DNA of 64,000 bases from an uncultured Candidatus Saccharibacteria bacterium (GCA_964618905.1 CAZUDK010000001.1:13982-77981); one strand, 5' to 3'. Counted from the stretch's first letter, positions 19,483-64,000 are shown. Notes: generated by a model not told the origin, from the sequence alone. Translations and numbers: made by a program.

Positions 19483-19485
19483 TCA

Positions 19486-20058: not shown

Positions 20059-20080
20059 TGTGTTTGAGTCAAATGCTTTT

Positions 20081-25000: not shown

Positions 25001-25227
25001 GGTTGTGACGCCACTTGCAGCACCTTCTTGATGGCGTCTTCTCTTGCATCTTCGGAAACATTTGGATTGAGGCGTTCTACGGCAGCACGTAAGCGTGATT
25101 GCAAAATAACCTCACGCAAATCACCGCGCTCTGCTTCTTGCTCGTCTGGGGCAAGGTAGGTGTAGCCCTGCTGTTCAAGCAGTTCGACAACCCATTTTTC
25201 TATATCGCTTTCGTAGATTCGGCTCAT
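22060..25227 (-). CDS. hsdR: Type I restriction enzyme R subunit
   Basis: 1055 aa. Helicase motifs include HTQGSGKS and MADEAHRSQ, with characteristic HsdR length and a C-terminal helical domain. Confidence 0.95.
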
Positions 25228-25229
25228 AA

Positions 25230-27259: not shown

Positions 27260-27263
27260 GGTT

Positions 27264-27896
27264 TTATTCTGTTTGCCCGTCGCGCTTGGCTATGTTTTCG
27301 CGGTCTTCTTCTGGCAAGCTGCCATACAAAGCATCAATCTCTTGTGGCTCGGTAATCATTTTTTCTGCAATGATATTCACCAAGCGAAAAAGTGCTTCGG
27401 CAGTTTGTGGCTGGTCATCAAGGTTTATCTGTCCAGGATGCACAGCATGGTTGCCGATAACTCGTACCGTATCGAGCATTTGCTGTACCTTCTTCGGTAG
27501 TCCGTTCTCAACAAGAGTTGCTATATCGGTATTGAGGTTTTTGCCTTCACCTCCAACAGATGCACAAAGCTTCTGAATAGCGAGACGTAAAAGAGCGGCT
27601 GCTGCTCGTGGTGACTTTTGTACAATTTGCGCGGCTTCCTCGTAGTCACGCTTCACTTCTGTCGGCAGGTCACTGCTTGGCTTCTCAACAGGAGTATTCG
27701 TTGGTCGTATCATTTCACCGTAATACCAAACAGAAAAATCCTTACACTGGCTACAAATCGCAATACTCAATCCTTGAATATGTGCGTTGCCTTGTGTCCA
27801 CGTACCACTCCATGTTTGGTGTGCATACGCAGTACAATGCGGGCAGTTGAACGCATTTCCATTTAGATATGGGACTGTGTAGGGTATGTCTGTCAT
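27264..27896 (-). CDS. DUF4145/HEPN-like protein with an N-terminal zinc ribbon, embedded between hsdM and hsdS
   Basis: CPHCTAY...CSQC forms the zinc ribbon. [15 protein letters not shown]...[14 protein letters not shown] gives the Rx4H motif. Confidence 0.55.
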
Positions 27897-29521
27897 AGGT
27901 TGAATCCAATTTTCTTTAGCTGCTTCTCAATCTCGACATTGAGTTTTTCCTCCTCCTTTATCTGCTCCTTCAAAGTAGAGGTGAGGCGTGCCATTTTTTC
28001 TTCAAACGGCTCACCATCATCTTCAATAACGGCTGCACCGACATAACGTCCAGGAGTAAGAACGTAATTATGCTTTTGAATATCGGGCAATGTGGCAGAC
28101 TTACAGAAACCTTTGATGTCTTTGTATTTGCTTTCTTTGCTGCGCCATTCGTGATACGTGCTGGTGATTTTCTTCACCACTTCGGGCGTGAACTCACGAT
28201 GCGTACGGTCTACAAGATGTCCCATCTCCGAAGCGTCAATAAAGAGCACTTCGCCTGTACGCTTGCGGTCTCCGTTTCCGAGACGCTTGCGTGATATGAA
28301 CCAAAGACATGCAGGAATACCAGTGTTATAGAAAAGTTGTTTTGGAAGGGAGACAATACAATCTACGAGGTCAGCATCAACAATGTTTTTACGAATCTCA
28401 CCCTCGCCACTTGATTGAGAAGAGAGGGAGCCATTCGCCAAGACCATTGCCATGACACCCTTCGGAGCAAGGTGATGAATCATGTGCTGCATCCATGCAA
28501 AGTTGGCATTGTTTGCAGGTGGTGTGCCGTACTGCCATCGTGGGTCATTTTTCACAATATCCCAACCCCAGTCACTTTGATTGAATGGTGGATTGGCGAT
28601 GATGTAGTCAGCTTTCAAGTCAGGATGTGCGTCTTTGAGGAAAGAACCTTCGCTATTCCATTGCACCTGCGAACTATCAATACCGCGAATGGCAAGGTTC
28701 ATGCGAGCCAAACGATAGGTGGTGTGATTGCTTTCTTGTCCGAAGATAGAAATGTCATCAATACGTCCACGATGTGAGAGTACAAACTTCTCACTCATCA
28801 CAAACATACCGCCAGAACCACAAGCGGGGTCATAAACGCGTCCTTTATGTGGCTCAATCATTTCAACCATCAGCTCAACAATACTGCGAGGTGTATAGAA
28901 CTGTCCGCCTTTCTTTCCTTCGGCTGCCGCAAACTCACCAAGGAAGTATTCATACACACGACCGAGGATGTCTTTTGATTTTGCAGCTTCATCGCCCAAC
29001 GCAATGTTCCCGATAAGGTCAATGAGGGCACCGAGCGCGAGTTTATCTATGTTTGGAGTGGCATACACCTTCGGCAAAATACCCTTGAGGGTAGGGTTCG
29101 CTTTCTCAATCGCATCCATTGCTGCATCCAAATCCTTACCGACGCTTGGTTGCTTTGCTCGTGAATGAAGAAATGACCATCGCGCCGTTGGTGGTACCCA
29201 AAAGACATTTTCTGCACGGTATTCATCTGCATCTTCGGGGTCTGCGCCCGCATATTCAGCATCACCAGATAAAAGTTTCTGATGCAGCACCTCGAAGCTA
29301 TCAGAAATGTATTTCAAAAAAATGAGACCGAGAACAATGTGTTTGTATTCCGCTGCGTCTATGTTTTTGCGGAGTTTATCAGCAGCCGAAAAAAGCTGGC
29401 TTTCAAAGCGTCCGTTTGTATTCTCTGTACCTGCGTCTTTTTTGCTTTTAGTTTTCATTTCTTTTTTGATGCCCGCTTCTTGGGTTGCACGTTCACGTTT
29501 GCTTCTATGAACTTCGCCCAA
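27893..29521 (-). CDS. hsdM: Type I restriction-modification N6-adenine DNA methyltransferase
   Basis: [10 protein letters not shown] is the SAM motif and IIANPPF is the catalytic NPPF. The probable true start is MKTKSKKD at 29458, which overlaps the upstream HTH gene stop as ATGA. Confidence 0.95.
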
Positions 29522-29661
29522 TCGTCTTTATGTATTCGCCAGGTACCCAGGCGTACCGCCTTTAGTTTTCCTTCCTTGATATAGCGATACAAAGTGCGTT
29601 CGCTGATACCGAAACGCTCCACTATATCCTTTACCCGCAATAACTCTTCTTTGTTTGGCAT
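29455..29661 (-). CDS. Excisionase/AlpA-family HTH protein at the head of the RM operon
   Basis: [53 protein letters not shown] is an Xis-type winged HTH. The ORF track extends it to 29745. The palindrome tgccatggca lies upstream. Confidence 0.55.
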
Positions 29662-29985
29662 AATGATGGCTCTTACGGGGAGTATTTTAGCACTTTTCTG
29701 CCATTTTTGCCATGGCAGCAGAGGCAGAGTTGGCAAATTATCCACAGAACATGTTCTTGCGTTCTACTTTCAAGAATAGATATAATCAGGATGTCGGTAG
29801 TTCATTGACTAAAAAGTTTGCAGACAATTAGCAAGGGTACGAGCATTAGCCAGGCATAACTAAAGCGCTCGCTTTAGTCGCAGAGGCAGCAGCATTACGC
29901 CCCGCATAAAAAGTAGCAAGTAACACGCAATCGCGTTGTTGTTTCCTTCTTTTTGCGCGGGGCTTTCTCTTTTGAGCAACCCCAC

Positions 29986-30010
29986 CAAAAAACGGGTTGC
30001 TTTTTAGTTT
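29986..30010 (+). terminator. Rho-independent terminator inside the island's noncoding stretch
   Basis: gcaaccc-caccaaaaaac-gggttgc is followed by tttttagttt. Confidence 0.45.
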
Positions 30011-30423
30011 GTGACACCGACGTTCGCCTATGTTGAGCGTCGAGACATGCAAAAAAATAATGGGCAAGGATGCCGATAATCTCACCGATGAAAACATCGA
30101 GCAGATTAGAGATGACTTGTACATTGTTGCAAATCTTGCGTTCTCACATTGGCAACAAAGCTACGTATCAACCGATACGCAGCAAGCACTTCCTGGAAAC
30201 AGTAAGTGAGTCATGAGTGATAGCCGCCAGCTGGCGGTAGCGGACGAGTGGAGCGGTAATCTCCACCTGCTGACCCCGAATCACCACGAACGCTGGACTT
30301 GGAACTGACGAGGACGAATCACCCCTTTATTGTTCCTTCTTCCGCTGCCCCGAAGGGGTACCGCCATGACAAACGCAATGCAGGTCGAGTATTGCTATTA
30401 GCAACAACAATCAGTGAAAGAGT

Positions 30424-30588
30424 ATGCGTGACAAACACTACCCAAATCGAACCGTACGCGTAGCCGATGACGTATGGGAAGCAATCAAGTCGGTAAGGAA
30501 AGAGTCGGGCTTGTCCTGGAATCTCTTTCTGAAATTGGTAACCACTAAATTGAAAAGCCATGAGCGAAACGAGAAAGAAACCGAGTGA
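30424..30588 (+). CDS. Small MobC-like ribbon-helix-helix protein of 54 aa
   Basis: NRTVRVADDVWEAIKSVRKESGLSWNLFLKL resembles the MobC/RHH R.V.E.E...A...G.S.S motif. It is below the ORF-track cutoff. The 3' end overlaps the next ORF. Confidence 0.4.
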   Translation: MRDKHYPNRTVRVADDVWEAIKSVRKESGLSWNLFLKLVTTKLKSHERNEKETE

Positions 30589-30760
30589 AGGTGAACCCTG
30601 TCCTTACTGTGGCGCAAAAGTCGTGAGAGCTGTACCGAGGCAAAAAGCACGAGGTCATCGTGCCTACTACTACGAATGGTATCTCCGATGCTCCAACGTG
30701 AGGTGTCCAAAGGGATACAAAGACATGCCCAATGAGGCACGTCGCAATTGGGACGAATAA
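30560..30760 (+). CDS. Small zinc-ribbon protein
   Basis: CPYCGAK...CSNVRCPKG. Confidence 0.4.
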   Translation: MSETRKKPSEGEPCPYCGAKVVRAVPRQKARGHRAYYYEWYLRCSNVRCPKGYKDMPNEARRNWDE

Positions 30761-31104
30761 CTTTCGGTGCGAATTATTCCTCATGGAGAGGGCATCCCCC
30801 GCCGAAGAAAAGGGTCGAAAACCAAAACTCCCACCACCAATTTCTACTTTCCACAAAAACTACACGACATAGACAAGGCAACACTCATTGAGTTCATTCT
30901 GCATAACGGAGCATAACCCAGGTATTACCTGTCGTAGTCGTGTGAGAGGAGAAAAGTACCGTCCACGTGGATACCGAGCAGGTTGAAGCGTGGAAATAAA
31001 AACAGCCCTCGTGGGGCAATTGCACTAAATGGTTCTTTGATGAAGTTCAAATGAATCAAACGAGAACTTCAACTAACAAATGAATCATAGCAAAGTGTCT
31101 CACT

Positions 31105-31377
31105 TTGGGTCAAGTGGATAAAACACACATATTCAAATCATTGTATTGCACTAAAGAACCAAAAGCAGATATGAACGACGAAATGAAAAACCAAAGCGGG
31201 CGGGCGGCAACGATAAGTGTAAGTGCTGTTGCTGCCGACCTCGGTGTATCACGCGCAACGGTGTTGCGTTGGATTCGTGCAGAAAAAATCCAGGGCTTCT
31301 TCCGAATAGGAACGAAGTGGCTCATCCGTCGAGAGGATTATGAGCATTTTATCAACCGTCAGATAGGCGAAAAGTAA
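31105..31377 (+). CDS. Excisionase/MerR-like HTH DNA-binding protein
   Basis: ISVSAVAADLGVSRATVLRWIRAEKIQGFFRIGTKWLIRREDYEHFI is an Xis-family HTH. Confidence 0.6.
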   Translation: MGQVDKTHIFKSLYCTKEPKADMNDEMKNQSGRAATISVSAVAADLGVSRATVLRWIRAEKIQGFFRIGTKWLIRREDYEHFINRQIGEK

Positions 31378-31379
31378 CT

Positions 31380-31607
31380 ATGAACAACAAACAAGACAAC
31401 AATGAAGATAAGAAGGATTGGTTAGGACAACTTGTCTTCTGGCTCACTATCGGTGTTCTCGTGTTTAGCATCACAACTTTGCTTGGCTATCTCAATGAGC
31501 ATGTTGATTTTGAGGTGACATCGAGCAATGTCGGCTTTGTGGAGTTTTCTATCTTGGTAGCATTGGTCGTTCTTTTGACTCTTGGCGGATTGTTCAGGAA
31601 AAAATAA
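31380..31607 (+). CDS. Small two-TM membrane protein
   Basis: Two hydrophobic segments. It is coupled to the flanking genes. Confidence 0.4.
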   Translation: MNNKQDNNEDKKDWLGQLVFWLTIGVLVFSITTLLGYLNEHVDFEVTSSNVGFVEFSILVALVVLLTLGGLFRKK

Positions 31608-31609
31608 CC

Positions 31610-32515
31610 ATGAATAAACTCATCACACAATTTGTACACTACCTTTCAGCCGAGCGTAACTTCTCGGAACGTACGGTTCGTGCGTATGAGTTAGATTTGC
31701 AGAAGTTTGTTGAGTTTTTGGAATCTCGCAACACTACAGACATTTCAGAAGTTGCTCGTGATGACATTCGCGCTTTTCTTTCAGAACTAACTAAAAACGG
31801 AATCAAGAAGCCAAACAGTGCCGTAACTCGTGCTCGCAAGCTCTCCTCAATCAAGTCCTTCTATAAGTATCTTGTTCGTTACGGAGTGCTCGAATCAAAC
31901 CCCGCCGCAGATGTTGAAACACCAAAGCTGCCTCATAAAGAACCGAATTATCTTACTCCCCAAGAATATGATGCGTTGCTTGTAGCAGTACGGCGTGCCG
32001 CAACACCTTTTTACCTTGCGCGTGACCTTGCTATCGTCACCACTTTCCTCAATACAGGTGTTCGTCTATCTGAACTTGTAGGGCTGTCTCTCAATAGCAT
32101 CAATCTCGAATCATCAAATGCTTTTATCAAGGTGCGCGGTAAGGGAGACAAAGAGCGCACCATCCCACTAAACGACAACGTTGCAGCAACACTGCGCAAG
32201 TATGTAGCGAAACGCCCAGAAGTTGATACTAACCAACTGTTCATCAGTAGATTGGGAAAGGGGCTTTGCGCAAGAAGCGTATATCACCTTATCAAGCGCT
32301 ACCTAAAAGAAGCAGGAATCAAGAAAGACCGTATTGGTGTTCACTCACTACGTCATACATTCGGCGCTTCACTCCTCGCAAAGAATGTGAACCTTGTCGT
32401 CATTCAAGAACTTCTGGGGCACAAAAAACTTGAAACAACCCGCAGATACCTTCACATCAACAGCGTTGACCTACGCAATGCGGTTGACCGTTTGGCATTA
32501 GACACACAACCATGA
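31610..32515 (+). CDS. Tyrosine site-specific recombinase (XerC/XerD-like integrase)
   Basis: An N-terminal SAM-like core-binding region is present. HSLRHTF and RRYLH carry the catalytic His and Tyr. It is 301 aa. Confidence 0.85.
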   Translation: MNKLITQFVHYLSAERNFSERTVRAYELDLQKFVEFLESRNTTDISEVARDDIRAFLSELTKNGIKKPNSAVTRARKLSSIKSFYKYLVRYGVLESNPAADVETPKLPHKEPNYLTPQEYDALLVAVRRAATPFYLARDLAIVTTFLNTGVRLSELVGLSLNSINLESSNAFIKVRGKGDKERTIPLNDNVAATLRKYVAKRPEVDTNQLFISRLGKGLCARSVYHLIKRYLKEAGIKKDRIGVHSLRHTFGASLLAKNVNLVVIQELLGHKKLETTRRYLHINSVDLRNAVDRLALDTQP

Positions 32516-34053
32516 ACACTCCTTCAACAAAACCAAAAGCAATAATCTATATTCGCGTCTCATCGGATGAGCAATATGAGGGCACGAGTCCAGGATTCCA
32601 ACGGAAAGAATGTTTGAGATACTGCGAGCAGAGAGGTTTTGATGTTGTTGCGGAGTTTGAAGAACCAGAATCAGCAAAGGATTTGTCTTTGAATAACCGA
32701 AAAGAATTGTTGCGTTCAATTGAGTTTTGTCGAAAACATAAAAATCAAATCCAAGCGTTTGTGGTATTACGCGTCAACCGCTTTGCTCGTAATACAGAAG
32801 ACCACTTTATTATCCGTAAAAAATTACTCTCTTACGGAACGACCTTGCACTCTGTTACAGAACCTATCGGAAATAAGCCGATTGAGAAACTCGTAGAAAC
32901 AGTTGCAGCTGCTTCTGCTGATTATGAGAATGCCATTCGAAAGCAACAATGCTCCGATGGTATGAGTGAAAAAATCAATCAAGGTATCTATCCTTGGAAA
33001 CCACCATTGGGTTATGCATGCGGTCAGTTCAAAAAACGTGGTCTGAAAAAGACAGAAGCCGATAAGCCAGACACTGTGCGTTTTCGCTTTATTCAACAGC
33101 TCTTGAAAAAATGTCTTGAGGAGAAAATCAAAAGTAATGTCGAACTCGCTAAACTGCAAAAAATTGATGAGATTTTTTCAAACAAGTTTTACGCAGGCAT
33201 TATCGTCAATCCGTTCACAGGTAAAGAGGTTGAGGGAAAACATGAACGAATGATTACGCCAGAAGAGTTCAACCAGATTCAACTTATCCGCAAAGGCAAG
33301 GCGCCAGTCATTATCAAGAAGAAACTAAAAAATCATCCTCATTTTCCACTAACACGGGATATGAAGTGCGTATGTAGTGTGGGCATGAGTGGCAGTCACC
33401 CCCGTGGAAATGGAGGTGTATATTCTTACTACCATTGCCACAACAGGGATTGTCCGCTTTATTGCAAGAACATACCTGCTGATAAAGTGCACTCTGATTT
33501 TCTGGCGTGGCTTGGAGGAGTAACACCAAAGCAAGAGTTTCTCGACCTATTCCGTGAGATTGTGATTGATGTCTGGCGCAACAATACTTCACTGCTTGAA
33601 GATGCTATCAAACAACAACAAAAGGAGCTTGAGGAGCTGCGACAAAAGAAGTTTGAATATGTTGAGCTAATTCGTAAGGGCACTATCAGTGAGGACTTTG
33701 GTAAAGAAGTTATTGAGCAGACAGATAACGAAATTGCAGCAAAACAAATCACTATCCGTGAGAATCACTTGGATAAGCTCGATATCGAAACCGCAGTATC
33801 CTACGCCACCAACTTTATTTCAGACCTTCCACGCACCTGGATGGATTTGGACATTGACGCAAAAAAGCGGTTCCAAAAACTCGTTCTTCCCGAAGGAATC
33901 GTGTACGATAAAAACAACGGATTTGGAACCGCCAAACTGGGCTTTATTTACGAGATGAATCAGCAACTTGTTGCTGAAAAATCAGATTTGGTGGACCCTA
34001 CCGGATTCGAACCGGTGACCTCCTCATTGCAAATGAGGCGCTCTACCAACTAA
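32512..34053 (+). CDS. Large serine recombinase (resolvase catalytic domain plus recombinase and zinc-ribbon domains)
   Basis: AIIYIRVSSDEQ carries the catalytic Ser. A Cys-rich ribbon (CVCSVG...YYHCHNRDCPLYC) is present. The start overlaps the tyrosine recombinase stop as ATGA. The last roughly 20 codons read through tRNA-Ala. Confidence 0.8.
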   Translation: MNTPSTKPKAIIYIRVSSDEQYEGTSPGFQRKECLRYCEQRGFDVVAEFEEPESAKDLSLNNRKELLRSIEFCRKHKNQIQAFVVLRVNRFARNTEDHFIIRKKLLSYGTTLHSVTEPIGNKPIEKLVETVAAASADYENAIRKQQCSDGMSEKINQGIYPWKPPLGYACGQFKKRGLKKTEADKPDTVRFRFIQQLLKKCLEEKIKSNVELAKLQKIDEIFSNKFYAGIIVNPFTGKEVEGKHERMITPEEFNQIQLIRKGKAPVIIKKKLKNHPHFPLTRDMKCVCSVGMSGSHPRGNGGVYSYYHCHNRDCPLYCKNIPADKVHSDFLAWLGGVTPKQEFLDLFREIVIDVWRNNTSLLEDAIKQQQKELEELRQKKFEYVELIRKGTISEDFGKEVIEQTDNEIAAKQITIRENHLDKLDIETAVSYATNFISDLPRTWMDLDIDAKKRFQKLVLPEGIVYDKNNGFGTAKLGFIYEMNQQLVAEKSDLVDPTGFEPVTSSLQMRRSTN

Positions 34054-34064
34054 GCTAAGGGCCC
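33989..34064 (-). tRNA. tRNA-Ala(UGC)
   Basis: Folded by hand. The acceptor is GGGCCCU/AGGGUCC with a G3:U70 pair. The anticodon loop is UUUGCAA. The T-loop is UUCGAAU. The discriminator is A and CCA is encoded. Confidence 0.85.
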
Positions 34065-34122
34065 AATAAAAGGAAAGTATAGTAGACAAGCAGGGAAAAA
34101 TCAATCAAAATATCGGCCAATA

Positions 34123-34196
34123 GGGCCTATAGTATAGTAGTAACACACGTCCATGGCATGGACGAGTCCGGGGTGCGATTCCCCGTAGGTCCACCA
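34123..34196 (+). tRNA. tRNA-Ala(GGC)
   Basis: The acceptor is GGGCCUA/UAGGUCC with G3:U70. The anticodon loop is AUGGCAU. The T-stem is CGGGG/CCCCG. CCA is encoded. It is divergent from tRNA-Ala(UGC) across a shared 58-bp region. Confidence 0.8.
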
Positions 34197-34230
34197 AACA
34201 ACAAATCCCGCATAAGCGGGATTTGTTGTT
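34197..34230. terminator. 15-bp perfect hairpin (aacaacaaatcccgc-ataa-gcgggatttgttgtt)
   Basis: It lies between the tRNA-Ala(GGC) 3' end and the convergent gene ending at 34238. Confidence 0.55.
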
Positions 34231-45098: not shown

Positions 45099-46103
45099 TT
45101 ACCTCTTCGTAATAATACTCTTCTTGTATACATCCAAATGTTCAAGGGCAACTCCCGTACCTTTTGCCACGCAATAGTAAGCATCATCAGCAAGCACTGC
45201 TTTTACTCCTGTCCTTCTGAGTACCAATTCCGGCAAATGCCTGAGCTGGGAAGAACCACCTGTCATAATGATGCCTCTGTCTATAATATCTGCCGAAAGT
45301 TCAGGCGGCGTCTCCTGCAAGACATCCTTAATAGCCTTAACCATTCCTCGAAGTTCCTTGGAAATAGCTTTGACTATTTCATTGGTCTTAAGCTCAATAG
45401 TCCGAGGCAAACCTAATATTGAATCCCGACCTTTTATCGGCATCACCAGCTCCTCATCCAAAGAAACTGCCGAACCTATTCGTATCTTGATATCCTCAGC
45501 CATCTTGTCTCCTATGGCTAAGTTGTAAACTTTTTTGATGTAATCTGCGATTGCCGCATCTATTTTATTTCCAGCAACCTTTACGGAAGTTGAAGACACT
45601 ATTCCTCCGAGAGAAATAACAGCCACGTCAGTAGTTCCCCCACCAATGTCCACTATCATGTGTCCCGCTGCTTCTTGAATTGGAATGCCTGCGCCTATAG
45701 CAGCCAGAATAGGTTCTTTAACAACATATGCATTTTTAGCTCCGGCTTTAATTGCCGCTTCGATAACCGCTCGGCGCTCTGTAGATGTGACACCCGCCGG
45801 CACAGATACAAGCACATCCGGCTTCCAGATATTCCATTTACCCAAAGCTTTATCTATATAATGCCTAAGCATCGCTTCAGTAACTCTATAGTCCGCTATC
45901 ACTCCGTCCTTCATCGGGCGATAAGCCACAATCTCATCAGGAGTTCTACCTACCATGGTCTTAGCTTCTGCTCCGACAGCTAAAATCCTATTATCATCTT
46001 CAGATACTGCCACTACAGAGGGCTCATTGAGGACGATTCCTTTACATGGAACGAACACCAGAATGTTAGTCGTACCGAGATCTATACCGAGTTTCTTTGC
46101 CAT
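45099..46103 (-). CDS. mreB: Rod shape-determining protein MreB
   Basis: LGIDLGTTNILVFV and DIGGGTTDVAVIS are the actin-fold phosphate motifs. Confidence 0.95.
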   Translation of the reverse strand: MAKKLGIDLGTTNILVFVPCKGIVLNEPSVVAVSEDDNRILAVGAEAKTMVGRTPDEIVAYRPMKDGVIADYRVTEAMLRHYIDKALGKWNIWKPDVLVSVPAGVTSTERRAVIEAAIKAGAKNAYVVKEPILAAIGAGIPIQEAAGHMIVDIGGGTTDVAVISLGGIVSSTSVKVAGNKIDAAIADYIKKVYNLAIGDKMAEDIKIRIGSAVSLDEELVMPIKGRDSILGLPRTIELKTNEIVKAISKELRGMVKAIKDVLQETPPELSADIIDRGIIMTGGSSQLRHLPELVLRRTGVKAVLADDAYYCVAKGTGVALEHLDVYKKSIITKR

Positions 46104-46140: not shown

Positions 46141-48129
46141 ATGAAATCTGGAAAAGAACCCGTCTCGCGTCGACGAGATTCCGCGAGTCGAGACGGGAAG
46201 ATAAGAAGAGTGGCAATGAGGGCAAGTTCACCTTCTGTAGTAGAAGTCATCCCAATTGTTAAAGGCTCTATGAAGCCTTCTCTTTCCTATTTCACAAGCA
46301 AAGTAGTAGAGGTGGGTGAATTTGTAAAAGTGCCTCTCAGAAAAGGAGAAGCTGTTGCCATAGTTACTGCTGTGCATGACGCAGAGAAAGCTAAGACTCA
46401 TCTTAAGAGCTCGCCTTTTGCCCTTAAAAAACTTTCAAGCCTCGGCTTGCAAAAAAAATCCGGTAAAGGGAGCACCAAAGAACCGGAGAAAGCCCGCATA
46501 GGAAAAGCTTTCATGGCGGCGGCGGAGAAATGCGCCAAATATTATTCTTCAACTACCGGCAGCGTCCTCGATGCTCTCATACCGAAAATAATCCTCGACG
46601 AGCCGCAGCTCGTATTTACAAAAAAACAAGAAGATCAGAAGCTAGATAAATCAGGTCCCAAAAATGAACCACTATTGATCCAGCTCGATGAGAACGAACG
46701 CTTCGGACAATACAAGAGCATTATCCGCGAGAGCTTAGCTAAAAAGTCTTCGGTTATGTTTATTACTCCTACCGAAGAGGAAGCTCTGCGTGCCTTTGAA
46801 TTCCTCTCTCATGGCATAAGTGAATATGCTTACCTCTTTACTCTTAGCCAAAGCACTAAATCCTTAAAAAAGGTCTTGAATGAGGCAGCTGATTCAGAGC
46901 GGCCAGTGCTATTTGTCACCACTCCTTCTGGGGTATCTTTCAACAGACCGGACCTCGACACCATCATCCTAGAGAAAGAAAATTCCAGAGCATACAGGAC
47001 TATGACTCGTCCATACATGCACCTTAAAGTTTTCTTGGAATATCTGGTGCAGCAATCTGCAAAGAGACTGATCTTTGGAGATTCAGTGCTTTCTTTGGAA
47101 TCTCTATGGAAGGAAAAAGAAGGCGAATACAAGGATTTCTTCCCTCTTAAATGGAGGCTTCCTTCAGATAGCCATGTCAGGCTCATAGACATGAAAGCAG
47201 AGCAGAGAGAAACTAAGAAATTCGATATCTTCTCCCAAGAGCTTAAAGAGATGATACAGAAAGCATTGGAAGAAAAAGAGAAAGTATTCCTCTTCGGTGC
47301 TCGCAAAGGTCTTTCCCCCACCACCATTTGTGGTGACTGCGGCTCCATTCTTACCTGCAAAAACTGTGGCGGCCCAGTGGTCTTACACCGCAAGGAAGAG
47401 AATTCGGGAGAGAACATATATATCTGTCATGCCTGCAGAGCACGCAGACCGGCCGAAACTGCATGCGACACCTGCGGCAGCTGGAAACTTTCTGCCATCG
47501 GCATTGGAACAGACCTCATAAAAGAAGAAGTGAAAAATATTTTCCCGAAGGCAAGAGTGATGTCTCTCGACAAAACTCATGCCAACACCAATGCTAAGAT
47601 CCAGAAAATAGTCCAAGACTTTGAAAGCGGCGGTGAAATATTAGTAGGCACTGAACTGGCTCTTCTATATATGAAAAGAGTGCCTTATGTAGGATTGGTG
47701 TCAGTCGATGCGCTCTTCTCTATACCAGACTTCTGCATAAACGAAAGAATATTTTATCTTGTAAGCAAGCTCAGAGAAATTTCTTATAAAGAAACTGTTA
47801 TTCAAACTCGCAACATTGGTAAGATGGTTCTGACCCAGGCTGCTGCCGGAAATATTCTTGATTTCTACAAGGATGAAATATCAGAACGGGAAGAGATAAA
47901 ATACCCACCTTTCTCATTATTTATTAAAATTACTCCAGTCTCCAAAGAAGCAGCCAAGATTGTGCCGAATCTCAAAGAGACCTTGATGAAGTGGAGACCG
48001 GATGTGGTAAAGGATTCCTTGGTCATCCGCCTGCCGAGAGAAAAATGGCCGGATCAAGAACTCAGAGAAGAACTGTCTTTGCTTACTCCAGACTTTTCAA
48101 TTAAAGTAGACCCCGAAAGCATACTATAA
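46141..48129 (+). CDS. priA: Primosomal protein N' (PriA) homolog with degenerate Walker A and Walker B motifs
   Basis: An N-terminal 3'-DNA-binding-like domain is present. The PriA Cys-rich zinc region is CGDCGSILTCKNCGG...CHACRAR...CDTCGS. A C-terminal domain is present. GxTGSGKT is replaced by LDENERFGQYKS and DEEH by LEKEN. Confidence 0.75.
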   Translation: MKSGKEPVSRRRDSASRDGKIRRVAMRASSPSVVEVIPIVKGSMKPSLSYFTSKVVEVGEFVKVPLRKGEAVAIVTAVHDAEKAKTHLKSSPFALKKLSSLGLQKKSGKGSTKEPEKARIGKAFMAAAEKCAKYYSSTTGSVLDALIPKIILDEPQLVFTKKQEDQKLDKSGPKNEPLLIQLDENERFGQYKSIIRESLAKKSSVMFITPTEEEALRAFEFLSHGISEYAYLFTLSQSTKSLKKVLNEAADSERPVLFVTTPSGVSFNRPDLDTIILEKENSRAYRTMTRPYMHLKVFLEYLVQQSAKRLIFGDSVLSLESLWKEKEGEYKDFFPLKWRLPSDSHVRLIDMKAEQRETKKFDIFSQELKEMIQKALEEKEKVFLFGARKGLSPTTICGDCGSILTCKNCGGPVVLHRKEENSGENIYICHACRARRPAETACDTCGSWKLSAIGIGTDLIKEEVKNIFPKARVMSLDKTHANTNAKIQKIVQDFESGGEILVGTELALLYMKRVPYVGLVSVDALFSIPDFCINERIFYLVSKLREISYKETVIQTRNIGKMVLTQAAAGNILDFYKDEISEREEIKYPPFSLFIKITPVSKEAAKIVPNLKETLMKWRPDVVKDSLVIRLPREKWPDQELREELSLLTPDFSIKVDPESIL

Positions 48130-48695
48130 TGCCTGAGACTAAAAAAACTGTGGCTAAAAAGCCAGCTAAGACCATAAGAACAAAGGATGATCCCATCTTG
48201 CGGGAGAAGGCGGAGCCTGTGCCTGTAAAAGAAATAACATCCGAAAAAATCCAAAAAGTTTTGATAGAGATGAGTAAGGCTCTTCATGGAGAAGATGACG
48301 GCGTGGCGATAGCCGCGCCGCAAATCGGAGAAAAGCTTAGAATTTTTGTTGTGAATACAGAAGCTCTCAGCGAGCTTACAGGCGACCCGAATTCGGATGC
48401 AAAAAAGAATGTCGAAGACATGGTTTTCATAAATCCTGAGATAAAGAAGCTGTCTCGCAAAAAAGTATGGATGGAAGAAGGATGCCTTTCGGTAAGATGG
48501 CTATACGGCAAAGTCAAAAGAAGCGAGAAAGCAACGGTGACAGCCTACGATAGAGACGGTAAAAAATTCGAGAAAGGCGCTTCAGGCATACTGGCCCAAA
48601 TATTCCAGCACGAAACAGATCACTTGAATGGCATTTTATTCATAGACAAGGCTAAAGACCTTGAAGATTTGCCTCCCGATAATGAAAACAGCTAA
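48129..48695 (+). CDS. def: Peptide deformylase
   Basis: The GVAIAAPQIG, EGCLSV and QHETDHLNG motifs. Confidence 0.95.
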   Translation: MPETKKTVAKKPAKTIRTKDDPILREKAEPVPVKEITSEKIQKVLIEMSKALHGEDDGVAIAAPQIGEKLRIFVVNTEALSELTGDPNSDAKKNVEDMVFINPEIKKLSRKKVWMEEGCLSVRWLYGKVKRSEKATVTAYDRDGKKFEKGASGILAQIFQHETDHLNGILFIDKAKDLEDLPPDNENS

Positions 48696-49569
48696 AGAAC
48701 AAGAAATAAAATTTGTATTCTTCGGCACTTCAGAATTTGCTGTCGGCGTACTTGAAGTTTTAAAGAAAGAAGGCATGATGCCTTCTCTTGTTGTTACTAC
48801 GGAAGACAAGCCGAAAGATAGAGGTCTTGGCCTACAGCCCACTCCGGTAAAACAGTGGGCAGAAATACATGGAATTACGGTGTTCCAGCCGAGTGATTTG
48901 AAGTCGGATGATGTTTATAAAAGACTTGAAGAAGAGCAAGCAGAGTTATTTATAGTCGCCTCTTATGGCAAGCTTCTGCCGGAGAGAATATTTGAATTGC
49001 CACCTCACAAAACTTTAAACGTACACCCTTCCCTGCTTCCAAAATTAAGAGGTCCCGCTCCTATAGTAAGCGCCATACTCGAAGGCCAAGAGACAGGAGT
49101 AACCATCATGCTTATGAGTAAAGAAATGGACGCCGGACCGATATTATCCCAAAAGCAAGCTGTGATTCCTGATATGCAGAATGACCCTCCAAGAAGAGAC
49201 TCTTTGGAAGAACTTTTGGCCAGAGAAGGCGGTGAACTTTTAGTGGAAACTATCCCAGCATGGATCAGTGGAAACATAAAACCAAGAGAGCAAGATCAGA
49301 ACGAAGTCACTTATACCAAAAAAATCGAGAAGCAGGACGGGCTTCTTAATATCTTTTCAGATCCCTTGGAAAATTTGCGCAAAGTGAGAGGTTATTGGGG
49401 CTGGCCCGGAGCTTTTATGTTTTTCAAAGATAAGAATGGAAATAAAGTGAGAGTAGTGGTGAAAGAGGCAGAAATTTCAAATGGAATATTCACCCCCATA
49501 TCAGTCGTACCTGAAGGCAAAAAAGAAATGCCTTGGAAAGATTTTTTAAGAGGGCGAAGAGAGTTATAG
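48661..49569 (+). CDS. fmt: Methionyl-tRNA formyltransferase
   Basis: The N-terminal formyltransferase core (NVHPSLLPKLRG) and a C-terminal tRNA-binding domain. Confidence 0.9.
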   Translation: MKICLPIMKTAKEQEIKFVFFGTSEFAVGVLEVLKKEGMMPSLVVTTEDKPKDRGLGLQPTPVKQWAEIHGITVFQPSDLKSDDVYKRLEEEQAELFIVASYGKLLPERIFELPPHKTLNVHPSLLPKLRGPAPIVSAILEGQETGVTIMLMSKEMDAGPILSQKQAVIPDMQNDPPRRDSLEELLAREGGELLVETIPAWISGNIKPREQDQNEVTYTKKIEKQDGLLNIFSDPLENLRKVRGYWGWPGAFMFFKDKNGNKVRVVVKEAEISNGIFTPISVVPEGKKEMPWKDFLRGRREL

Positions 49570-50869: not shown

Positions 50870-51286
50870 ATGAGCTTACCTAAAAAATATAAAGGCACCA
50901 AAAGAAAACTAAAGGTTAAGAAATCCCACGCCGGCCTCGGCTTGTTCACAGAAGAGCCTATAGAGAAAGGCGGATTTATCATAGAATACACAGGAACAAT
51001 ATTGAACGAAAAGCAGGCAAACGAAAAAGGCGGCAAATATCTTTTCGAAACCAGTTCAAACAGATTTATCGATGGCTCCGGCAGAAAAAATACCGCCAGA
51101 TATATCAATCACTCTTGCCGGCCGAATTGTGAAATAGATATACGAAGAGGTCATATACTTGTATTTGCAAAGCGTGCAATTAAGGCTGGAGAAGAGCTCG
51201 GCTATGATTATGAAAAAGAATATTTTGATGAATACATCAAACCTTATGGCTGCAAGTGCATAAAATGCAGAGAAGAGGCTAAATAG
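50870..51286 (+). CDS. SET-domain protein (putative lysine methyltransferase) with post-SET cysteines
   Basis: GLGLFTEEPIEKGGFIIEYTG...NHSCRPNC...ELGYDY...CKCIKC. Confidence 0.8.
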   Translation: MSLPKKYKGTKRKLKVKKSHAGLGLFTEEPIEKGGFIIEYTGTILNEKQANEKGGKYLFETSSNRFIDGSGRKNTARYINHSCRPNCEIDIRRGHILVFAKRAIKAGEELGYDYEKEYFDEYIKPYGCKCIKCREEAK

Positions 51287-56739: not shown

Positions 56740-57504
56740 ATGTCCAAACTAGATACAGCGCCATACAAGGGAGTCAGGGATTTTTATCCTGAAGATATGG
56801 TTATCCAGAACTATATTTTTGATACCTGGAAAAAGGTTTCTAAAGATTTTAATTATCAAGAATATTCTGCTTCGCCTCTCGAACCGACTGAGATTTATAC
56901 TGAAAAATCAGGATCGGAGATAGTTAACGAACAGACTTTCACCTTTATCGACAGAGGGGGGCGCTCTGTCACCCTGCGGCCGGAGATGACCCCGACGCTT
57001 GCCCGAATGATCGCCGCCAAGAGACGCAATCTCAAATACCCCCTACGCTGGTTCTCCATTCCAAACCTGTTCAGATACGAGAGGCCGCAGAGAGGGCGCA
57101 AGCGCGAACACTGGCAACTTAACTGCGACCTAGTAGGTGTTGCCGGCCTTGATGGTGACAGAGAAGTCATGTCCCTCGCTTATGCAATTATGAAAGAGTT
57201 TGGAGCAAAAGATGAAGACTTCGAAATAAGAGTGAACAACTGCAATCCGGAAGATTTCAAAGACATAGCTCCAAATATCGTATTCGATGAATCTCTTGCC
57301 AGAGGCCAAGCTTATTACACTGGACCGGTTTTTGAATTCTTTGATACTAATCCTGAGAACAGCCGCTCAATATGCGGTGGAGGAAGGTACGATAAACTTT
57401 TGGAGATTTTTGATGTTGAGCCTCTGCCTATTGCTGGCTTTGGCATGGGAGATATCACTCTGCGAGATTTCCTTGAGACTCATAAGCTAGGACCGTATGC
57501 GTAA
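56740..57504 (+). CDS. HisRS-like class II aaRS catalytic core lacking the anticodon-binding domain
   Basis: Motif 1/2-like TLRPEMT and WFSIPNLFRYERPQRGRKREHWQ are present. Motif 3 is GGGRYD and GFGMG follows. It ends about 15 aa after that, at 254 aa. Confidence 0.65.
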   Translation: MSKLDTAPYKGVRDFYPEDMVIQNYIFDTWKKVSKDFNYQEYSASPLEPTEIYTEKSGSEIVNEQTFTFIDRGGRSVTLRPEMTPTLARMIAAKRRNLKYPLRWFSIPNLFRYERPQRGRKREHWQLNCDLVGVAGLDGDREVMSLAYAIMKEFGAKDEDFEIRVNNCNPEDFKDIAPNIVFDESLARGQAYYTGPVFEFFDTNPENSRSICGGGRYDKLLEIFDVEPLPIAGFGMGDITLRDFLETHKLGPYA

Positions 57505-58072
57505 AATAGTTTTCGACATTGAGACTCGTAACGTCTTTGCAGACGTTGGAAAAAACGACCCTGCTCTTTTGGATATATCACTCGTAGCTATTCATGACTC
57601 CGAGACCGGAGAGTACTCTTCTTATCTTCAAGAAGAACTGTCAAAGCTGTGGCCCATCATAGAACGAGCAGACATGCTCATAGGCTTCAACTCGGACCAT
57701 TTCGACATTCCCCTGCTAAACAAATACTATCCTGGCGACCTCAAAGAGATCAGATCCCTTGATATTCTAAAGGAGATAAAGAATTCATATGGAAGAAGAA
57801 TGCGCCTCGATCAGCTTGCCGAAGGAACTCTTGGCTTGAACAAATCAGGGCACGGGCTTGATGCTATAGACTGGTGGAAGAAAGGTGAAATAGAAAAAAT
57901 CCGCAAATATTGCATTGATGATGTTAAGCTGACAAAAGACATCTATGACTATGCAATGAAAAACAACAAGCTGTTCTTTAAGGAAGGTAAAGACTTGCAT
58001 GAGATAACTCTCGACACCTCAGACTGGGAAAGCGAAGGTGACCATAAACTGACTTTCACTCTGCCATTTTAA
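57497..58072 (+). CDS. DEDDh 3'-5' exonuclease (DnaQ / oligoribonuclease-like)
   Basis: FDIET is Exo I. GFNSDHFDIPLL is Exo II. GHGLDAIDW...YCIDDV is Exo III. The start overlaps the upstream HisRS-like stop by 8 nt. Confidence 0.75.
   Translation: MRKIVFDIETRNVFADVGKNDPALLDISLVAIHDSETGEYSSYLQEELSKLWPIIERADMLIGFNSDHFDIPLLNKYYPGDLKEIRSLDILKEIKNSYGRRMRLDQLAEGTLGLNKSGHGLDAIDWWKKGEIEKIRKYCIDDVKLTKDIYDYAMKNNKLFFKEGKDLHEITLDTSDWESEGDHKLTFTLPF

Positions 58073-62193: not shown

Positions 62194-64000
<1,807 letters not shown>

What the first reader, a model, noticed from the sequence alone, without database searches (positions are those of the whole stretch)
46672..46986. PriA homolog with ablated Walker A and Walker B motifs
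The ORF has PriA's N-terminal DNA-binding region, the Cys-rich zinc-binding insertion and the C-terminal domain. Where GxTGSGKT is expected it reads LIQLDENERFGQYKS. Where DEEH is expected it reads ILEKEN. The protein is therefore very likely ATPase- and helicase-dead. Precedent has been reported for Deinococcus PriA, and helicase-dead E. coli PriA still loads the primosome. This therefore probably marks a replication-restart pathway that relies only on PriA's scaffolding function.
Basis: partly seen in the sequence, partly recalled or inferred. Interest (0 to 1): 0.55.

Follow-up and report, generated by a model that had tools for sequence, protein, structure and literature searches.

The report
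Motor-dead PriA across Parcubacteria
This ultra-small (Parcubacteria) bacterium, like every relative examined, carries a replication-restart protein PriA whose ATP-burning motor site has been rewritten and then kept under selection, so it most likely recognises stalled forks without unwinding DNA; this had been shown only for Deinococcus.

Summary
ORF 46141..48129 (+) is the priA orthologue, in mreB<-|priA-def-fmt synteny. AlphaFold2 gives a confident PriA fold and Foldseek's best matches are PriA structures.

All ATP-handling motifs are gone:
- Motif I GVTGSGKT reads QLDENERF, with Arg in place of the Walker A lysine.
- Motif II DEEHD reads EKENS.
- Motif III SAT reads DSV.
- The motif VI arginine-finger segment GRAGR is deleted.
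- The winged-helix domain and the stretch where a Q motif would lie are missing.

No Walker A string occurs anywhere in the ORF, whereas UvrB in the same window has GVTGSGKT.

It is not decay or error. 384 full-length relatives (33-76% identical; Zambryski-, Taylor-, Nomura-, Vogelbacteria, Paceibacterota) share the replacement signature. Lobe 1 is almost as conserved as lobe 2.

DNA-contact motifs Ia, Ic, IV and V, the 3'-end pocket Tyr and Lys, and all eight zinc cysteines are retained.

Best reading: a lineage-wide PriA pseudohelicase that works as an ATP-independent fork-recognition and loading scaffold. The only described precedent is Deinococcus-Thermus PriA, which also has Lys->Arg. No biochemistry was done, the edge of the clade was not reached, and a second priA per genome was not excluded.

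The parts
46141..48129 (+). priA ORF as the longest reading frame (662 aa). The probable true start is ATG 46216 (Met26), giving about 637 aa.
   Evidence: ORF listing. NCBIfam TIGR00595 E 2.1e-57 at 194.9 bits, below the 230.35 cutoff. Residues 1-27 have pLDDT <50. Homologues begin at query residues about 24-33.
46159..46197 (+). GC-rich 9-bp hairpin (CCCGTCTCG...CGAGACGGG) inside the first 25 codons. Probably a 5'-UTR element rather than coding sequence.
   Evidence: RNA fold of 46104-46230: -37.9 kcal/mol, z = -3.14. Sequence.
46237..46494 (+). 3'-end-binding domain (3'BD), aa 33-118. Y50 (=Ec Y18) and K96 (=Ec K61) of the 3'-end pocket are kept. Ec D17 is replaced by Ser/Thr.
   Evidence: Pfam PF17764 at 25.4 bits, above the 22.7 cutoff. 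Column counts. Pocket residues from PMC5778457.
46495..46671 (+). Helices 122-153 (pLDDT about 92-94) that align with the end of the E. coli 3'BD region, followed by a short low-confidence linker (aa 154-177). This stands where canonical PriAs carry the winged-helix domain and the N-terminal extension of lobe 1.
   Evidence: 26-40 residues here in 18 family members against 113-201 in 7 canonical PriAs. pLDDT 55-75 for aa about 160-180.
46672..47175 (+). RecA-like helicase lobe 1 (aa 178-345). Confidently folded but with degenerate ATP motifs.
   Evidence: pLDDT 93-97. Identity to canonical PriAs is 18%, against 45% among canonical PriAs. Identity within the family is 36%.
46681..46704 (+). Former motif I (Walker A). 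QLDENERF replaces GVTGSGKT. Family signature is Q-x-x-[DE]-[DE]-[DE]-R. R187 occupies the position of catalytic K230.
   Evidence: R187 is present in 80/80, 99% of 145 and 120/120 sequences. Strand 178-181 runs almost directly into helix 184-200, so there is no P-loop.
46972..46986 (+). Former motif II (Walker B). EKENS replaces DEEHD. Family pattern is [ED]-[RKH]-E-[NS]-S.
46990..47022 (+). Aromatic and basic loop (the motif IIa/ARL equivalent), AYRTMTRPYMH. Y285, R/K286, R290 and P291 are conserved.
   Evidence: Role of this loop at the fork junction from PMC5778457 and PMC10175261.
47077..47088 (+). Former motif III. GDSV replaces GSAT. D314 is conserved in all 80 genome-locus sequences and all 120 sequences of the second sub-family.
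47176..47325 (+). Helicase lobe 2, first part (aa 346-395). Includes motif IV R388-K389-G390 (=Ec R427-R428-G429, ssDNA contacts in the PriA pore).
   Evidence: Role of R427/R428 from PMC13594977.
47326..47487 (+). Cysteine-rich region (aa 396-449) with all eight zinc cysteines. D399 (=Ec D438) is conserved, H416 (=Ec H455) is H or Y, and W448 (=Ec T482) is a family-specific tryptophan.
   Evidence: PriB docking residues from PMC10175261.
47488..47928 (+). Helicase lobe 2, second part (aa 450-596). Motif V G503-T504 is kept (GTEL against GTQM). The motif VI remnant K543-L-R-E546 (47767..47778) carries the five-residue deletion of GRAGR.
47929..48126 (+). Shortened C-terminal domain (aa 597-662; 66 aa against about 93 in E. 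coli).
48129..48695 (+). def (peptide deformylase), immediately downstream.
   Evidence: Pfam PF01327 E 6e-46. Downstream of the priA homologue in 77 of 80 related loci.
48661..49569 (+). fmt (methionyl-tRNA formyltransferase).
   Evidence: Pfam PF00551. Present in 72 of 80 loci. The same priA-def-fmt order occurs with a canonical priA in Pusillibacter.
45099..46103 (-). mreB, divergently transcribed upstream neighbour.
   Evidence: Pfam PF06723 E 3e-129. Upstream within 3 kb in 59 of 80 loci.

Best explanation
The gene is the chromosomal priA orthologue of a Parcubacteria (class Paceibacteria, Patescibacteria/CPR) bacterium. It belongs to a very large clade in which PriA has become a pseudohelicase.

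Shown from sequence:
- The two RecA-like lobes, the zinc-binding cysteine-rich region, the 3'-end-binding domain and a short C-terminal domain are kept and under purifying selection.
- Every element that binds or hydrolyses ATP has been replaced or deleted: the P-loop, the Walker B acid pair, motif III and the motif VI arginine-finger segment.
- The stretch upstream of motif I, where a Q motif would lie, is missing, and so is the winged-helix domain.
- The replacement residues are themselves conserved. An acidic run [DE][DE][DE] followed by an invariant Arg sits at the N-terminus of helix alpha-1, next to [ED]-[RK]-E-[NS]-S and G-D.

Inferred:
- The former nucleotide cleft is filled by a fixed charged network rather than being empty or drifting.
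- The protein binds abandoned forks through the 3'BD pocket, the aromatic/basic loop and motifs Ia, Ic, IV and V.
- It closes its cysteine-rich region around single-stranded lagging-strand template, as E. coli PriA does.
- It then presents a docking surface for the next loading factor: DnaB directly, as reported for D. radiodurans, or an unknown adaptor.
- All of this happens without ATP hydrolysis or unwinding. It would therefore act only on forks that already carry a lagging-strand ssDNA gap, or depend on another helicase to clear that arm.
For: Identity as PriA:
- Searches give family, profile and PDB sequence matches.
- The AlphaFold2 model has pLDDT 86.7 and pTM 0.87.
- Foldseek's top nine hits are all PriA structures, TM 0.61-0.70 normalised to the query.

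Orthology:
- priA-def-fmt synteny holds in 77 and 72 of 80 related genomes and in more divergent members.
- The same gene order occurs with a canonical priA in a Clostridium-class genome.

Motif loss:
- Searches agree on the motif states.
- Seven canonical PriAs from four phyla keep GVT[GS]SGKT, DEE[HQ], SATP and QVxGRAGR. None of 18 family members in the same alignment does.
- None of 384 full-length relatives has a Walker A at the motif I position.
- No Walker A string occurs anywhere in the window ORF, while UvrB 3 kb away has one.
- The model shows strand 178-181 followed by a helix from residue 184, so there is no glycine-rich loop.

Purifying selection rather than decay:
- R187, R196, D314 and E280 are about 96-100% conserved at 33-54% overall identity.
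- Lobe 1 entropy is 2.14 bits, against 2.00 for lobe 2 and 2.06 for the cysteine-rich region.
- Within the family, lobe 1 identity is 36% against 43% for lobe 2.

Retained DNA and switch elements:
- Y50, K96, P210, T261, R388/G390, G503/T504.
- Eight cysteines, H416 and D399.

Functional plausibility from the literature:
- K230R alone abolishes E. coli PriA ATPase, yet the protein still supports primosome assembly and the PriA-PriB pathway.
- D. radiodurans PriA, also Lys->Arg, has no ATPase or helicase activity but binds forks and DnaB.
- CRR pore formation requires ssDNA on the lagging arm.
Against: - No biochemistry exists for any member. Loss of ATP binding is inferred from sequence and a predicted structure whose coordinates could not be inspected.
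- Arg at the Lys position and Glu at two Walker B positions leave a formal possibility of a non-canonical nucleotide site.
- The window contains no DnaB, DciA/DnaC, SSB, PriB or DnaT, so no partner can be named.
- Absence of a second, canonical priA elsewhere in these genomes was not tested.
- The role of the conserved replacement residues as a salt-bridge network is conjecture.
Confidence: 0.72

Rival explanations
1. The protein is a PriA-derived DNA-binding protein that has taken on a role other than classical replication restart. Examples would be a general helicase-loading adaptor at the origin in organisms lacking a recognisable loader, or a fork-protection or occlusion factor. In this reading the remodelled cleft and the family-specific Trp on the cysteine-rich region serve a new partner.
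For: - The replaced active-site residues and W448, at the position of the E. coli PriB-docking Thr482, are conserved beyond what mere loss of activity would require.
- The winged-helix domain, which binds parental duplex in E. coli, is gone.
- NCBIfam scores fall below every PriA equivalog cutoff.
Against: - priA-def-fmt synteny is that of the canonical orthologue.
- The 3'-end pocket Tyr and Lys, motif IV arginines and the CRR switch residues that define fork recognition in E. coli are all retained.
- Nothing in the data points to a different substrate.
Confidence: 0.15
2. The protein is still an NTPase or translocase using a non-canonical site. Arg187 would substitute for the Walker lysine, Glu278/Glu280 would act as the metal-binding or catalytic acids, or a second site would be used.
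For: - A basic residue and two acidic residues persist at Walker positions and are highly conserved.
- A second nucleotide site has been proposed for E. coli PriA.
Against: - K230R alone kills E. coli PriA ATPase.
- The glycine-rich loop is replaced by acidic residues and predicted to be helical.
- The motif VI arginine-finger segment is deleted and motif III is changed.
- The stretch where a Q motif would lie is absent.
- D. radiodurans PriA with the same Lys->Arg has no measurable ATPase.
Confidence: 0.06
3. This is a divergent paralogue kept alongside a canonical priA located elsewhere in the genome. Helicase-dependent restart would then be intact and this copy would be an accessory.
For: Only 64 kb of the genome was available. 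No whole-genome check could be done.
Against: - The gene occupies the orthologous priA-def-fmt slot in 77 of 80 genomes.
- These organisms have genomes of roughly 0.5-1 Mb, judged from contigs of 0.46-1.0 Mb, where duplicate priA genes would be unusual.
- Neither word-indexed search listed a canonical-looking Patescibacteria PriA. This is weak evidence, because only the best 120 hits are shown.
Confidence: 0.05
4. The divergence is a sequencing or assembly error, a frameshift, or a decaying pseudogene.
For: None found.
Against: - The ORF is uninterrupted.
- An identical protein is on record from a 198,886-bp contig.
- The same motif states occur in 384 independent full-length relatives from many studies.
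- The fold is predicted confidently.
- Conservation of lobe 1 is comparable to the rest of the protein.
Confidence: 0.01

Closest known systems
Deinococcus-Thermus PriA pseudohelicase (D. radiodurans PriA; Lopper, Boone & Morrow 2015, PMC4504706)
   Same: - Both are PriA orthologues with poor matches to helicase motifs I and II.
- In both, the Walker A lysine is replaced by arginine.
- Neither organism has a recognisable PriB or DnaT. This is reported for Deinococcus. None is in this window, and PriB is poorly conserved across bacteria.
- The expected outcome is the same: fork binding is retained, with no ATPase or helicase activity.
   Different: - The host lineage is different (Patescibacteria).
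- Common descent against convergence was not tested, because no Deinococcus-Thermus sequence could be obtained with these tools.
- Here motifs III and VI and the winged-helix domain are also lost, and the replacement residues form a sharply conserved signature. The state of those features in Deinococcus is not known to me.
- Deinococcus PriA has been assayed biochemically. This family has not.
Canonical PriA / primosomal protein N' (E. coli and K. pneumoniae; PDB 4NL4, 6DGD, 8FAK; TIGR00595)
   Same: - Domain order is 3'BD, lobe 1, lobe 2 with an inserted 8-Cys zinc region, then the CTD.
- The overall fold matches (TM about 0.70).
- The 3'-end pocket Tyr and Lys, the aromatic/basic loop, the motif IV Arg pair, motif V Gly-Thr and the CRR switch His are all present.
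- The priA-def-fmt gene order is the same as in Firmicutes.
   Different: - There is no Walker A, Walker B, motif III or motif VI, and no winged-helix domain.
- The CTD is shorter.
- Scores fall below the NCBIfam equivalog cutoffs.
- Lobe 1 is only 18% identical to canonical PriAs, against 45% among canonical PriAs from four phyla.
E. coli priA300 (PriA K230R) and PriA delta-WH (PDB 6DCR), engineered variants
   Same: - K230R is the laboratory equivalent of R187. It is ATPase-, helicase- and translocase-dead, yet competent for primosome assembly and the PriA-PriB pathway.
- The WH-deleted E. coli protein is among the best structural matches, with the lowest rmsd of the top hits (5.9 A; TM normalised to target 0.71).
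   Different: - Those are single engineered changes in an otherwise intact motor that works with PriB, DnaT and DnaC.
- Here the changes are natural, multiple, fixed across a clade, and occur in organisms in which no PriB or DnaT has been identified.

Membership tests
PriA (primosomal protein N', replication restart helicase; TIGR00595 / PRK05580) | N-terminal 3'-end-binding domain (3'BD) | tested here: met
   Pfam PF17764 at 25.4 bits, above the 22.7 cutoff. Y50 (=Ec Y18) is 99-100% conserved and K96 (=Ec K61) is K or R in nearly all members.
PriA (primosomal protein N', replication restart helicase; TIGR00595 / PRK05580) | Winged-helix DNA-binding domain between the 3'BD and the helicase core | tested here: not met
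   Only 26-40 residues occupy this interval in 18 family members, against 113-201 in seven canonical PriAs. The model has no folded domain there.
PriA (primosomal protein N', replication restart helicase; TIGR00595 / PRK05580) | Two RecA-like SF2 lobes with the overall PriA fold | tested here: met
   AlphaFold2 pLDDT 86.7 and pTM 0.87. Foldseek ranks 8fak_H, 4nl4 and 6dcr first, E 1e-34 to 1e-31, TM about 0.70.
PriA (primosomal protein N', replication restart helicase; TIGR00595 / PRK05580) | Walker A (motif I) GxTGSGKT with a catalytic Lys | tested here: not met
   The position reads QLDENERF, with Lys replaced by Arg187. No [AG]x4GK[ST] string occurs anywhere in the ORF.
PriA (primosomal protein N', replication restart helicase; TIGR00595 / PRK05580) | Walker B (motif II) DEEH | tested here: not met
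   The position reads EKEN.
PriA (primosomal protein N', replication restart helicase; TIGR00595 / PRK05580) | Motif III SAT and motif VI QxxGRxGR (arginine fingers) | tested here: not met
   Motif III reads GDSV. Motif VI has a five-residue deletion that removes GRAGR.
PriA (primosomal protein N', replication restart helicase; TIGR00595 / PRK05580) | Cysteine-rich region with eight Zn-binding Cys inserted in lobe 2 | tested here: met
   C397, C400, C406, C409, C429, C432, C442 and C445 are invariant in alignment A1 and 94-100% conserved in 145 cluster representatives.
PriA (primosomal protein N', replication restart helicase; TIGR00595 / PRK05580) | Score above the curated equivalog cutoff | tested here: not met
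   TIGR00595 scores 194.9 bits against a cutoff of 230.35. All PRK05580 and PRK14873 models score far below their cutoffs. NCBI accordingly names most members 'hypothetical protein'.
PriA (primosomal protein N', replication restart helicase; TIGR00595 / PRK05580) | Orthologous genomic position (priA-def-fmt) | tested here: met
   def is downstream in 77 of 80 loci and fmt in 72 of 80. The same order occurs with a canonical priA in Pusillibacter.
PriA pseudohelicase (as defined for Deinococcus-Thermus, PMC4504706) | PriA orthologue with Walker A Lys->Arg and degenerate motifs I and II | tested here: met
   R187 is aligned to K230 by MAFFT, and by extension of the hhalign register. It is conserved in about 99-100% of relatives. 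The definition is given.
PriA pseudohelicase (as defined for Deinococcus-Thermus, PMC4504706) | No ATP hydrolysis and no duplex unwinding in vitro | not testable with these tools
   This needs purified protein. The sequence evidence predicts neither activity.
PriA pseudohelicase (as defined for Deinococcus-Thermus, PMC4504706) | Retained ssDNA and fork binding, and interaction with the cognate DnaB | not testable with these tools
   Only proxies are available: conserved DNA-contact motifs and 3'BD pocket residues. No dnaB lies in the window.
PriA pseudohelicase (as defined for Deinococcus-Thermus, PMC4504706) | Common descent with the Deinococcus-Thermus proteins (same loss event) | not tested
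   No Deinococcus or Thermus PriA sequence could be retrieved. None was among those listed from the plasmid collection. The paper has no supplement held as text.

The most novel reading that the evidence does not exclude
Across the class Paceibacteria, and possibly more of the CPR, PriA has been converted from a motor into a fixed-state sensor and adaptor.
- The acidic triplet plus invariant Arg at the start of helix alpha-1, with the [ED]-[RK]-E and G-D replacements, would form an intramolecular charge network. It would occupy the former ATP cleft and lock the two lobes in one conformation.
- The invariant Trp on the cysteine-rich region lies at the position of the E. coli PriB-docking residue Thr482. 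It would be the docking point for a lineage-specific partner, either DnaB itself or an undescribed loader.
- Replication restart in these minimal-genome bacteria would then run entirely without PriA helicase activity and without a winged-helix contact to parental DNA. It would be gated only by the presence of a lagging-strand ssDNA gap.
- If the loss is independent of the one in Deinococcus-Thermus, the same Lys->Arg solution would have been reached twice.
Probability: 0.3. Interest if true: 0.6.

Novelty: new member of a known kind. Interest (0 to 1): 0.45.

Why it matters
[quoted passage not shown] Why the motor is kept, when E. coli can live without it, is unresolved.

This finding adds a second and much larger natural experiment.
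- At least 384 distinct full-length proteins carry the dead site.
- About 1,900 50%-identity clusters score E<=1e-30 against the window protein. That number is a ceiling, not a count, because it may include some canonical PriAs.
- Members come from Zambryski-, Taylor-, Nomura- and Vogelbacteria and other Paceibacteria.
- The motor site is not merely lost but rebuilt and conserved, together with loss of the winged-helix domain.

The family offers a naturally minimal PriA of about 630 aa. It could be used to separate fork recognition and loader recruitment from unwinding.

It also bears on how ultra-small, probably symbiotic bacteria with few repair functions complete replication.

There is a practical point too. 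These proteins fall below the NCBIfam cutoffs and show no helicase domain in Pfam, so many are deposited as 'hypothetical protein'. Gene-content surveys may therefore wrongly score PriA as absent from these genomes.

Tried and rejected
1. 'GQYKS' as a shifted GxGK[ST]. Rejected. Spacing to the flanking strands, the hhalign register (Y191 = Y234) and the predicted helix place it inside alpha-1. The Lys is K or R and the Ser is not invariant.

2. A Walker-A-like string A[FT]xTSGK[TS] about 30 residues downstream in five relatives. Rejected as chance. It lies in the conserved L-S-x-G-I loop, and the Lys is absent from the other roughly 380 sequences, including the window protein.

3. Finding the phylogenetic edge of the degenerate clade.
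- The representative search showed only family members in its best 150 hits.
- A 'walk' from the most canonical-like member, P0199, gave 118 further proteins, all degenerate.
- There was no trend toward canonical scores: the maximum was 283 bits against a canonical-PriA HMM on which canonical proteins score 965-1256.
- The edge was not reached.

4. Obtaining a Deinococcus or Thermus PriA to test common origin.
- The paper's supplement is not held as text.
- tblastn of the plasmid collection with E. coli PriA and with the window PriA listed only canonical PriAs from other phyla.

5. Looking for partners in the window. There is no DnaB, DnaC/DciA, SSB, PriB or DnaT. DnaG primase is present at 62194..63867 (-).

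6. Inspecting the predicted ATP cleft for salt bridges. Model coordinates are not exposed by the tools.

7. The antisense ORF 46830..47417 (-) under the finding is a mechanical ORF inside priA with no support.

8. Literature search for prior description in CPR or Parcubacteria. Nothing relevant was found in the held library.
Full report
**What is at the coordinates**

The finding (46672..46986) lies inside a 662-codon ORF, 46141..48129 on the + strand. It covers residues 178-282, running from the strand that precedes helicase motif I to the motif II position.

The ORF is followed directly by peptide deformylase (48129..48695) and methionyl-tRNA formyltransferase (48661..49569). It is preceded by a divergent mreB at 45099..46103 on the - strand.

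The rest of the window is ordinary chromosome of a small-genome bacterium. It holds:
- alaS, mnmA, leuS and ychF;
- a type I restriction-modification system and two recombinases;
- ddl, uvrC, uvrA, uvrB and tgt;
- hpf, typA, rpoD, dnaG and three tRNAs.

An identical protein is on record from a 198,886-bp contig. The closest named relatives are from Parcubacteria-group and Zambryskibacteria metagenome-assembled genomes.

**Is it PriA?**

- Pfam finds the PriA 3'-end-binding domain above threshold (25.4 against 22.7 bits). It gives only faint hits to the PriA zinc ribbon and to Helicase_C, and no DEAD/ResIII domain.
- NCBIfam's PriA equivalog TIGR00595 matches at E 2e-57, but at 194.9 bits, below its 230.35 cutoff. 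All other PriA models are far below theirs.
- phmmer against PDB sequences finds only K. pneumoniae and E. coli PriA, E about 1e-27 to 1e-24, and the alignment starts at residue 257.
- An AlphaFold2 model built on 56 relatives is confident: pLDDT 86.7, pTM 0.87, and lobe 1 at 93-97.
- Foldseek's first nine PDB matches are all PriA structures with TM 0.61-0.70 normalised to the query. They include the E. coli winged-helix-deletion protein 6DCR. Mfd and DEAD-box proteins follow far behind.

Orthology is supported by gene order. In 80 related genomes fetched from the species-representative collection, def lies just downstream in 77 and fmt in 72. The same holds for two more-divergent members. A canonical priA in Pusillibacter (Clostridia) sits in the same priA-def-fmt arrangement.

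**The motifs**

Three methods were used: MAFFT with E. coli PriA, hhalign profile-to-sequence, and phmmer against K. pneumoniae PriA. phmmer covers only residues 257 onward. Where they overlap, all three agree.

| Motif | Canonical PriA | This ORF | Note |
|---|---|---|---|
| I (Walker A) | GVTGSGKT | QLDENERF | Arg187 at the position of catalytic Lys230 |
| II (Walker B) | DEEHD | EKENS | |
| III | GSAT | GDSV | |
| VI | QVAGRAGR | K-L-R-E remnant | five-residue gap removes GRAGR |

- The model shows strand 178-181 passing almost directly into a helix that starts at residue 184. There is no glycine-rich phosphate-binding loop.
- The 'GQYKS' that follows is not a displaced GK[ST]. It lies within that helix, in register with E. 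coli E232-S236.
- The regular expression [AG]x4GK[ST] finds nothing anywhere in the ORF. UvrB in the same window reads GVTGSGKT, and UvrA, TypA and YchF have normal P-loops.
There is no intact motif elsewhere, and no frameshift or error.

- The winged-helix domain is absent, along with the stretch before motif I that would hold a Q motif. Between the end of the 3'BD and the motif I strand, seven canonical PriAs from four phyla have 113-201 residues. Eighteen family members have 26-40.
- The first 25 codons are unlikely to be translated. They are predicted to be disordered and are absent from homologues. They contain a 9-bp GC-rich hairpin at 46159..46197. The likely start is ATG 46216.

**Not an accident of one genome**

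| Search | Result | Motif state |
|---|---|---|
| Word-indexed search with the window protein | 120 relatives, 44-76% identical | all share the replaced motifs |
| Exhaustive search of 1.84 billion cluster representatives | 11,709 hits at E<=1e-3, 8,707 at <=1e-10, 1,900 at <=1e-30 | best 150 (33-55% identical, E<=1e-101) all degenerate |
| Second search from the most canonical-like member, P0199 | 118 further proteins labelled Paceibacterota, Vogelbacteria, Paceibacter | same signature |

In total, 384 full-length proteins were examined. None has a Walker A at the motif I position.

The replacement residues are themselves conserved:
- Gln181, Arg187, Arg196 and Asp314 are essentially invariant.
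- Positions 184-186 are nearly always Asp or Glu.
- Motif II is [ED]-[RKH]-E-[NS]-S.

Lobe 1 is not drifting. Column entropy is 2.14 bits, against 2.00 for lobe 2 and 2.06 for the cysteine-rich region. The domain identities show the same thing:

| Comparison | Lobe 1 | Lobe 2 |
|---|---|---|
| Within the family | 36% | 43% |
| Family against canonical PriAs | 18% | 27% |
| Canonical against canonical | 45% | 44% |

The ATP-binding lobe has changed disproportionately and was then fixed.

In a side-by-side panel, E. coli, Rhizobium, S. aureus, Bacillus, Pusillibacter, Acaryochloris and Bacteroides PriAs all keep GVT[GS]SGKT, DEE[HQ], SATP and QVxGRAGR. No family member does.

**What is retained**

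The residues that contact nucleic acid or operate the structural switch in E. coli PriA are kept:
- The 3'-end pocket Tyr (Y50 = Y18) and Lys (K96 = K61) are conserved. Asp17 is replaced by Ser/Thr (roles from PMC5778457).
- The aromatic/basic loop that wedges into the fork junction persists as [AS]-Y-[KR]-x3-R-P-[FY].
- Motif Ia Pro-Thr, motif Ic Thr261, motif IV Arg388-[KR]-Gly390 (= R427, R428, G429) and motif V Gly-Thr are conserved at about 91-100%.
- All eight zinc cysteines are conserved.
- His416 (= H455, needed for the rotated 'CRR-up' state) is His or Tyr. Position 458 (= E492; Asp in this protein) is Glu or Asp in most members (roles from PMC13594977).
- Asp399 (= D438, part of the E. 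coli PriB-docking surface) is 98% conserved.
- The neighbouring docking residue Thr482 is replaced by a family-specific tryptophan. It is present in 142 of 145 cluster representatives and 95 of 120 sequences of the second sub-family.

**Mechanism**

Shown:
- This is a PriA orthologue with a PriA fold.
- It lacks every ATP-handling motif.
- It is under purifying selection across a large clade.
- It retains the DNA-contact and zinc-region elements.

From established knowledge:
- K230R alone abolishes E. coli PriA ATPase, helicase and translocase activity, but leaves primosome assembly and the PriA-PriB pathway intact.
- D. radiodurans PriA has the same Lys->Arg. It has no measurable ATPase or unwinding, yet binds ssDNA and forks with near-normal affinity and binds DnaB.
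- In E. coli, fork binding rotates the cysteine-rich region to form a pore around at least 9 nt of lagging-strand ssDNA. That rotation exposes the docking surface. A duplex lagging arm prevents it unless PriA unwinds the arm.

Inferred:
- The Parcubacterial protein binds forks or D-loops through the 3'BD, the loop and the retained lobe motifs.
- It encircles lagging-strand ssDNA with its cysteine-rich region.
- It recruits the next factor without using ATP.
- It should therefore be limited to forks that already have a lagging-strand gap, or rely on another helicase.
- The conserved acidic triplet plus Arg at the helix N-terminus probably occupies and neutralises the former phosphate site.

**Limits**

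- No biochemistry exists for any member.
- No partner gene lies in the window.
- The absence of a second canonical priA per genome was not tested.
- The outer boundary of the degenerate clade was not reached.
- No Deinococcus-Thermus sequence could be obtained to decide between convergence and shared origin.

**Comparison and novelty**

The kind of thing, a PriA pseudohelicase, is known from one phylum (PMC4504706). The 2018 review still lists Deinococcus as the sole exception to conservation of PriA helicase activity. Searches of the held literature for PriA with Patescibacteria, candidate phyla radiation or Parcubacteria, and for 'pseudohelicase', found no description of this family.

I therefore file it as a new member of a known kind, with three distinguishing features: its scale, the loss of the winged-helix domain, and the conserved rewriting of the cleft.

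It fails several defining tests for 'PriA helicase': the motifs, the winged-helix domain and the equivalog cutoffs. It passes the tests for PriA orthology: fold, 3'BD, cysteine-rich region and synteny. It should be named a PriA-family pseudohelicase, not a helicase.

Interest is moderate. It would surprise a replication-restart specialist somewhat, and it offers a natural minimal system. The principle, however, is already established.

Noticed in passing
window 46159..46197: A GC-rich 9-bp hairpin (CCCGTCTCG...CGAGACGGG) lies between mreB and the probable priA start, inside the annotated first 25 codons. The region folds at z = -3.1. It could be a 5'-UTR regulatory element.
   Followed up: partly
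window 9057..11891 (-): The leucyl-tRNA synthetase (944 aa) carries a NUDIX hydrolase domain (aa 384-514, Pfam E 4.7e-17) inserted just after the editing domain. This is an unusual domain fusion.
   Followed up: no
window 56740..58072 (+): A histidyl-tRNA-synthetase-like ORF is only 254 aa, covering part of the catalytic core. It is followed immediately by an RNase_H-fold exonuclease-like ORF. It may be a truncated, split or HisZ-like gene.
   Followed up: no
window about 18000..34200: This looks like a possible genomic island.
- GC dips to 0.37 at 18-20 kb.
- A type I restriction-modification system is present: hsdR 22060..25227, hsdS 26033..27259, a DUF4145 gene, and hsdM 27893..29521.
- A tyrosine recombinase lies at 31610..32515.
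- A serine recombinase lies at 32512..34053. Its 3' end overlaps tRNA-Ala(tgc) at 33989..34064 (-).
- A second tRNA-Ala(ggc) lies at 34123..34196.
   Followed up: no
window 13816..18273 (-): A 1,485-aa protein has Big_7, Big_2 and SH3_3 domains. It also has a just-sub-threshold match to the Nup98-type S59 autopeptidase (27.7 against 28.4 bits). It is probably a large surface protein.
   Followed up: no
window 50870..51286 (+); L082 15705..16178: A small SET-domain protein (Pfam E 2e-23) lies near the priA-def-fmt-hpf cluster in the window. One also occurs in a relative only about 34% identical in PriA. It may be a conserved neighbour.
   Followed up: no
proteins P0014, P0027, P0038, P0043, P0058 (relatives), about 30 residues after the motif I position: Five relatives read A[FT]xTSGK[TS], a Walker-A-like string, in the loop that is L-S-x-G-I in the rest of the family. 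The Lys is not conserved, so this is judged to be chance.
   Followed up: partly
plasmid-collection hit H40 (CP144833.1, Candidatus Stammera capleta): In this extremely reduced insect symbiont, only residues 232-364 of E. coli PriA find a match (18% coverage, 29% identity). It may be another eroded priA.
   Followed up: no
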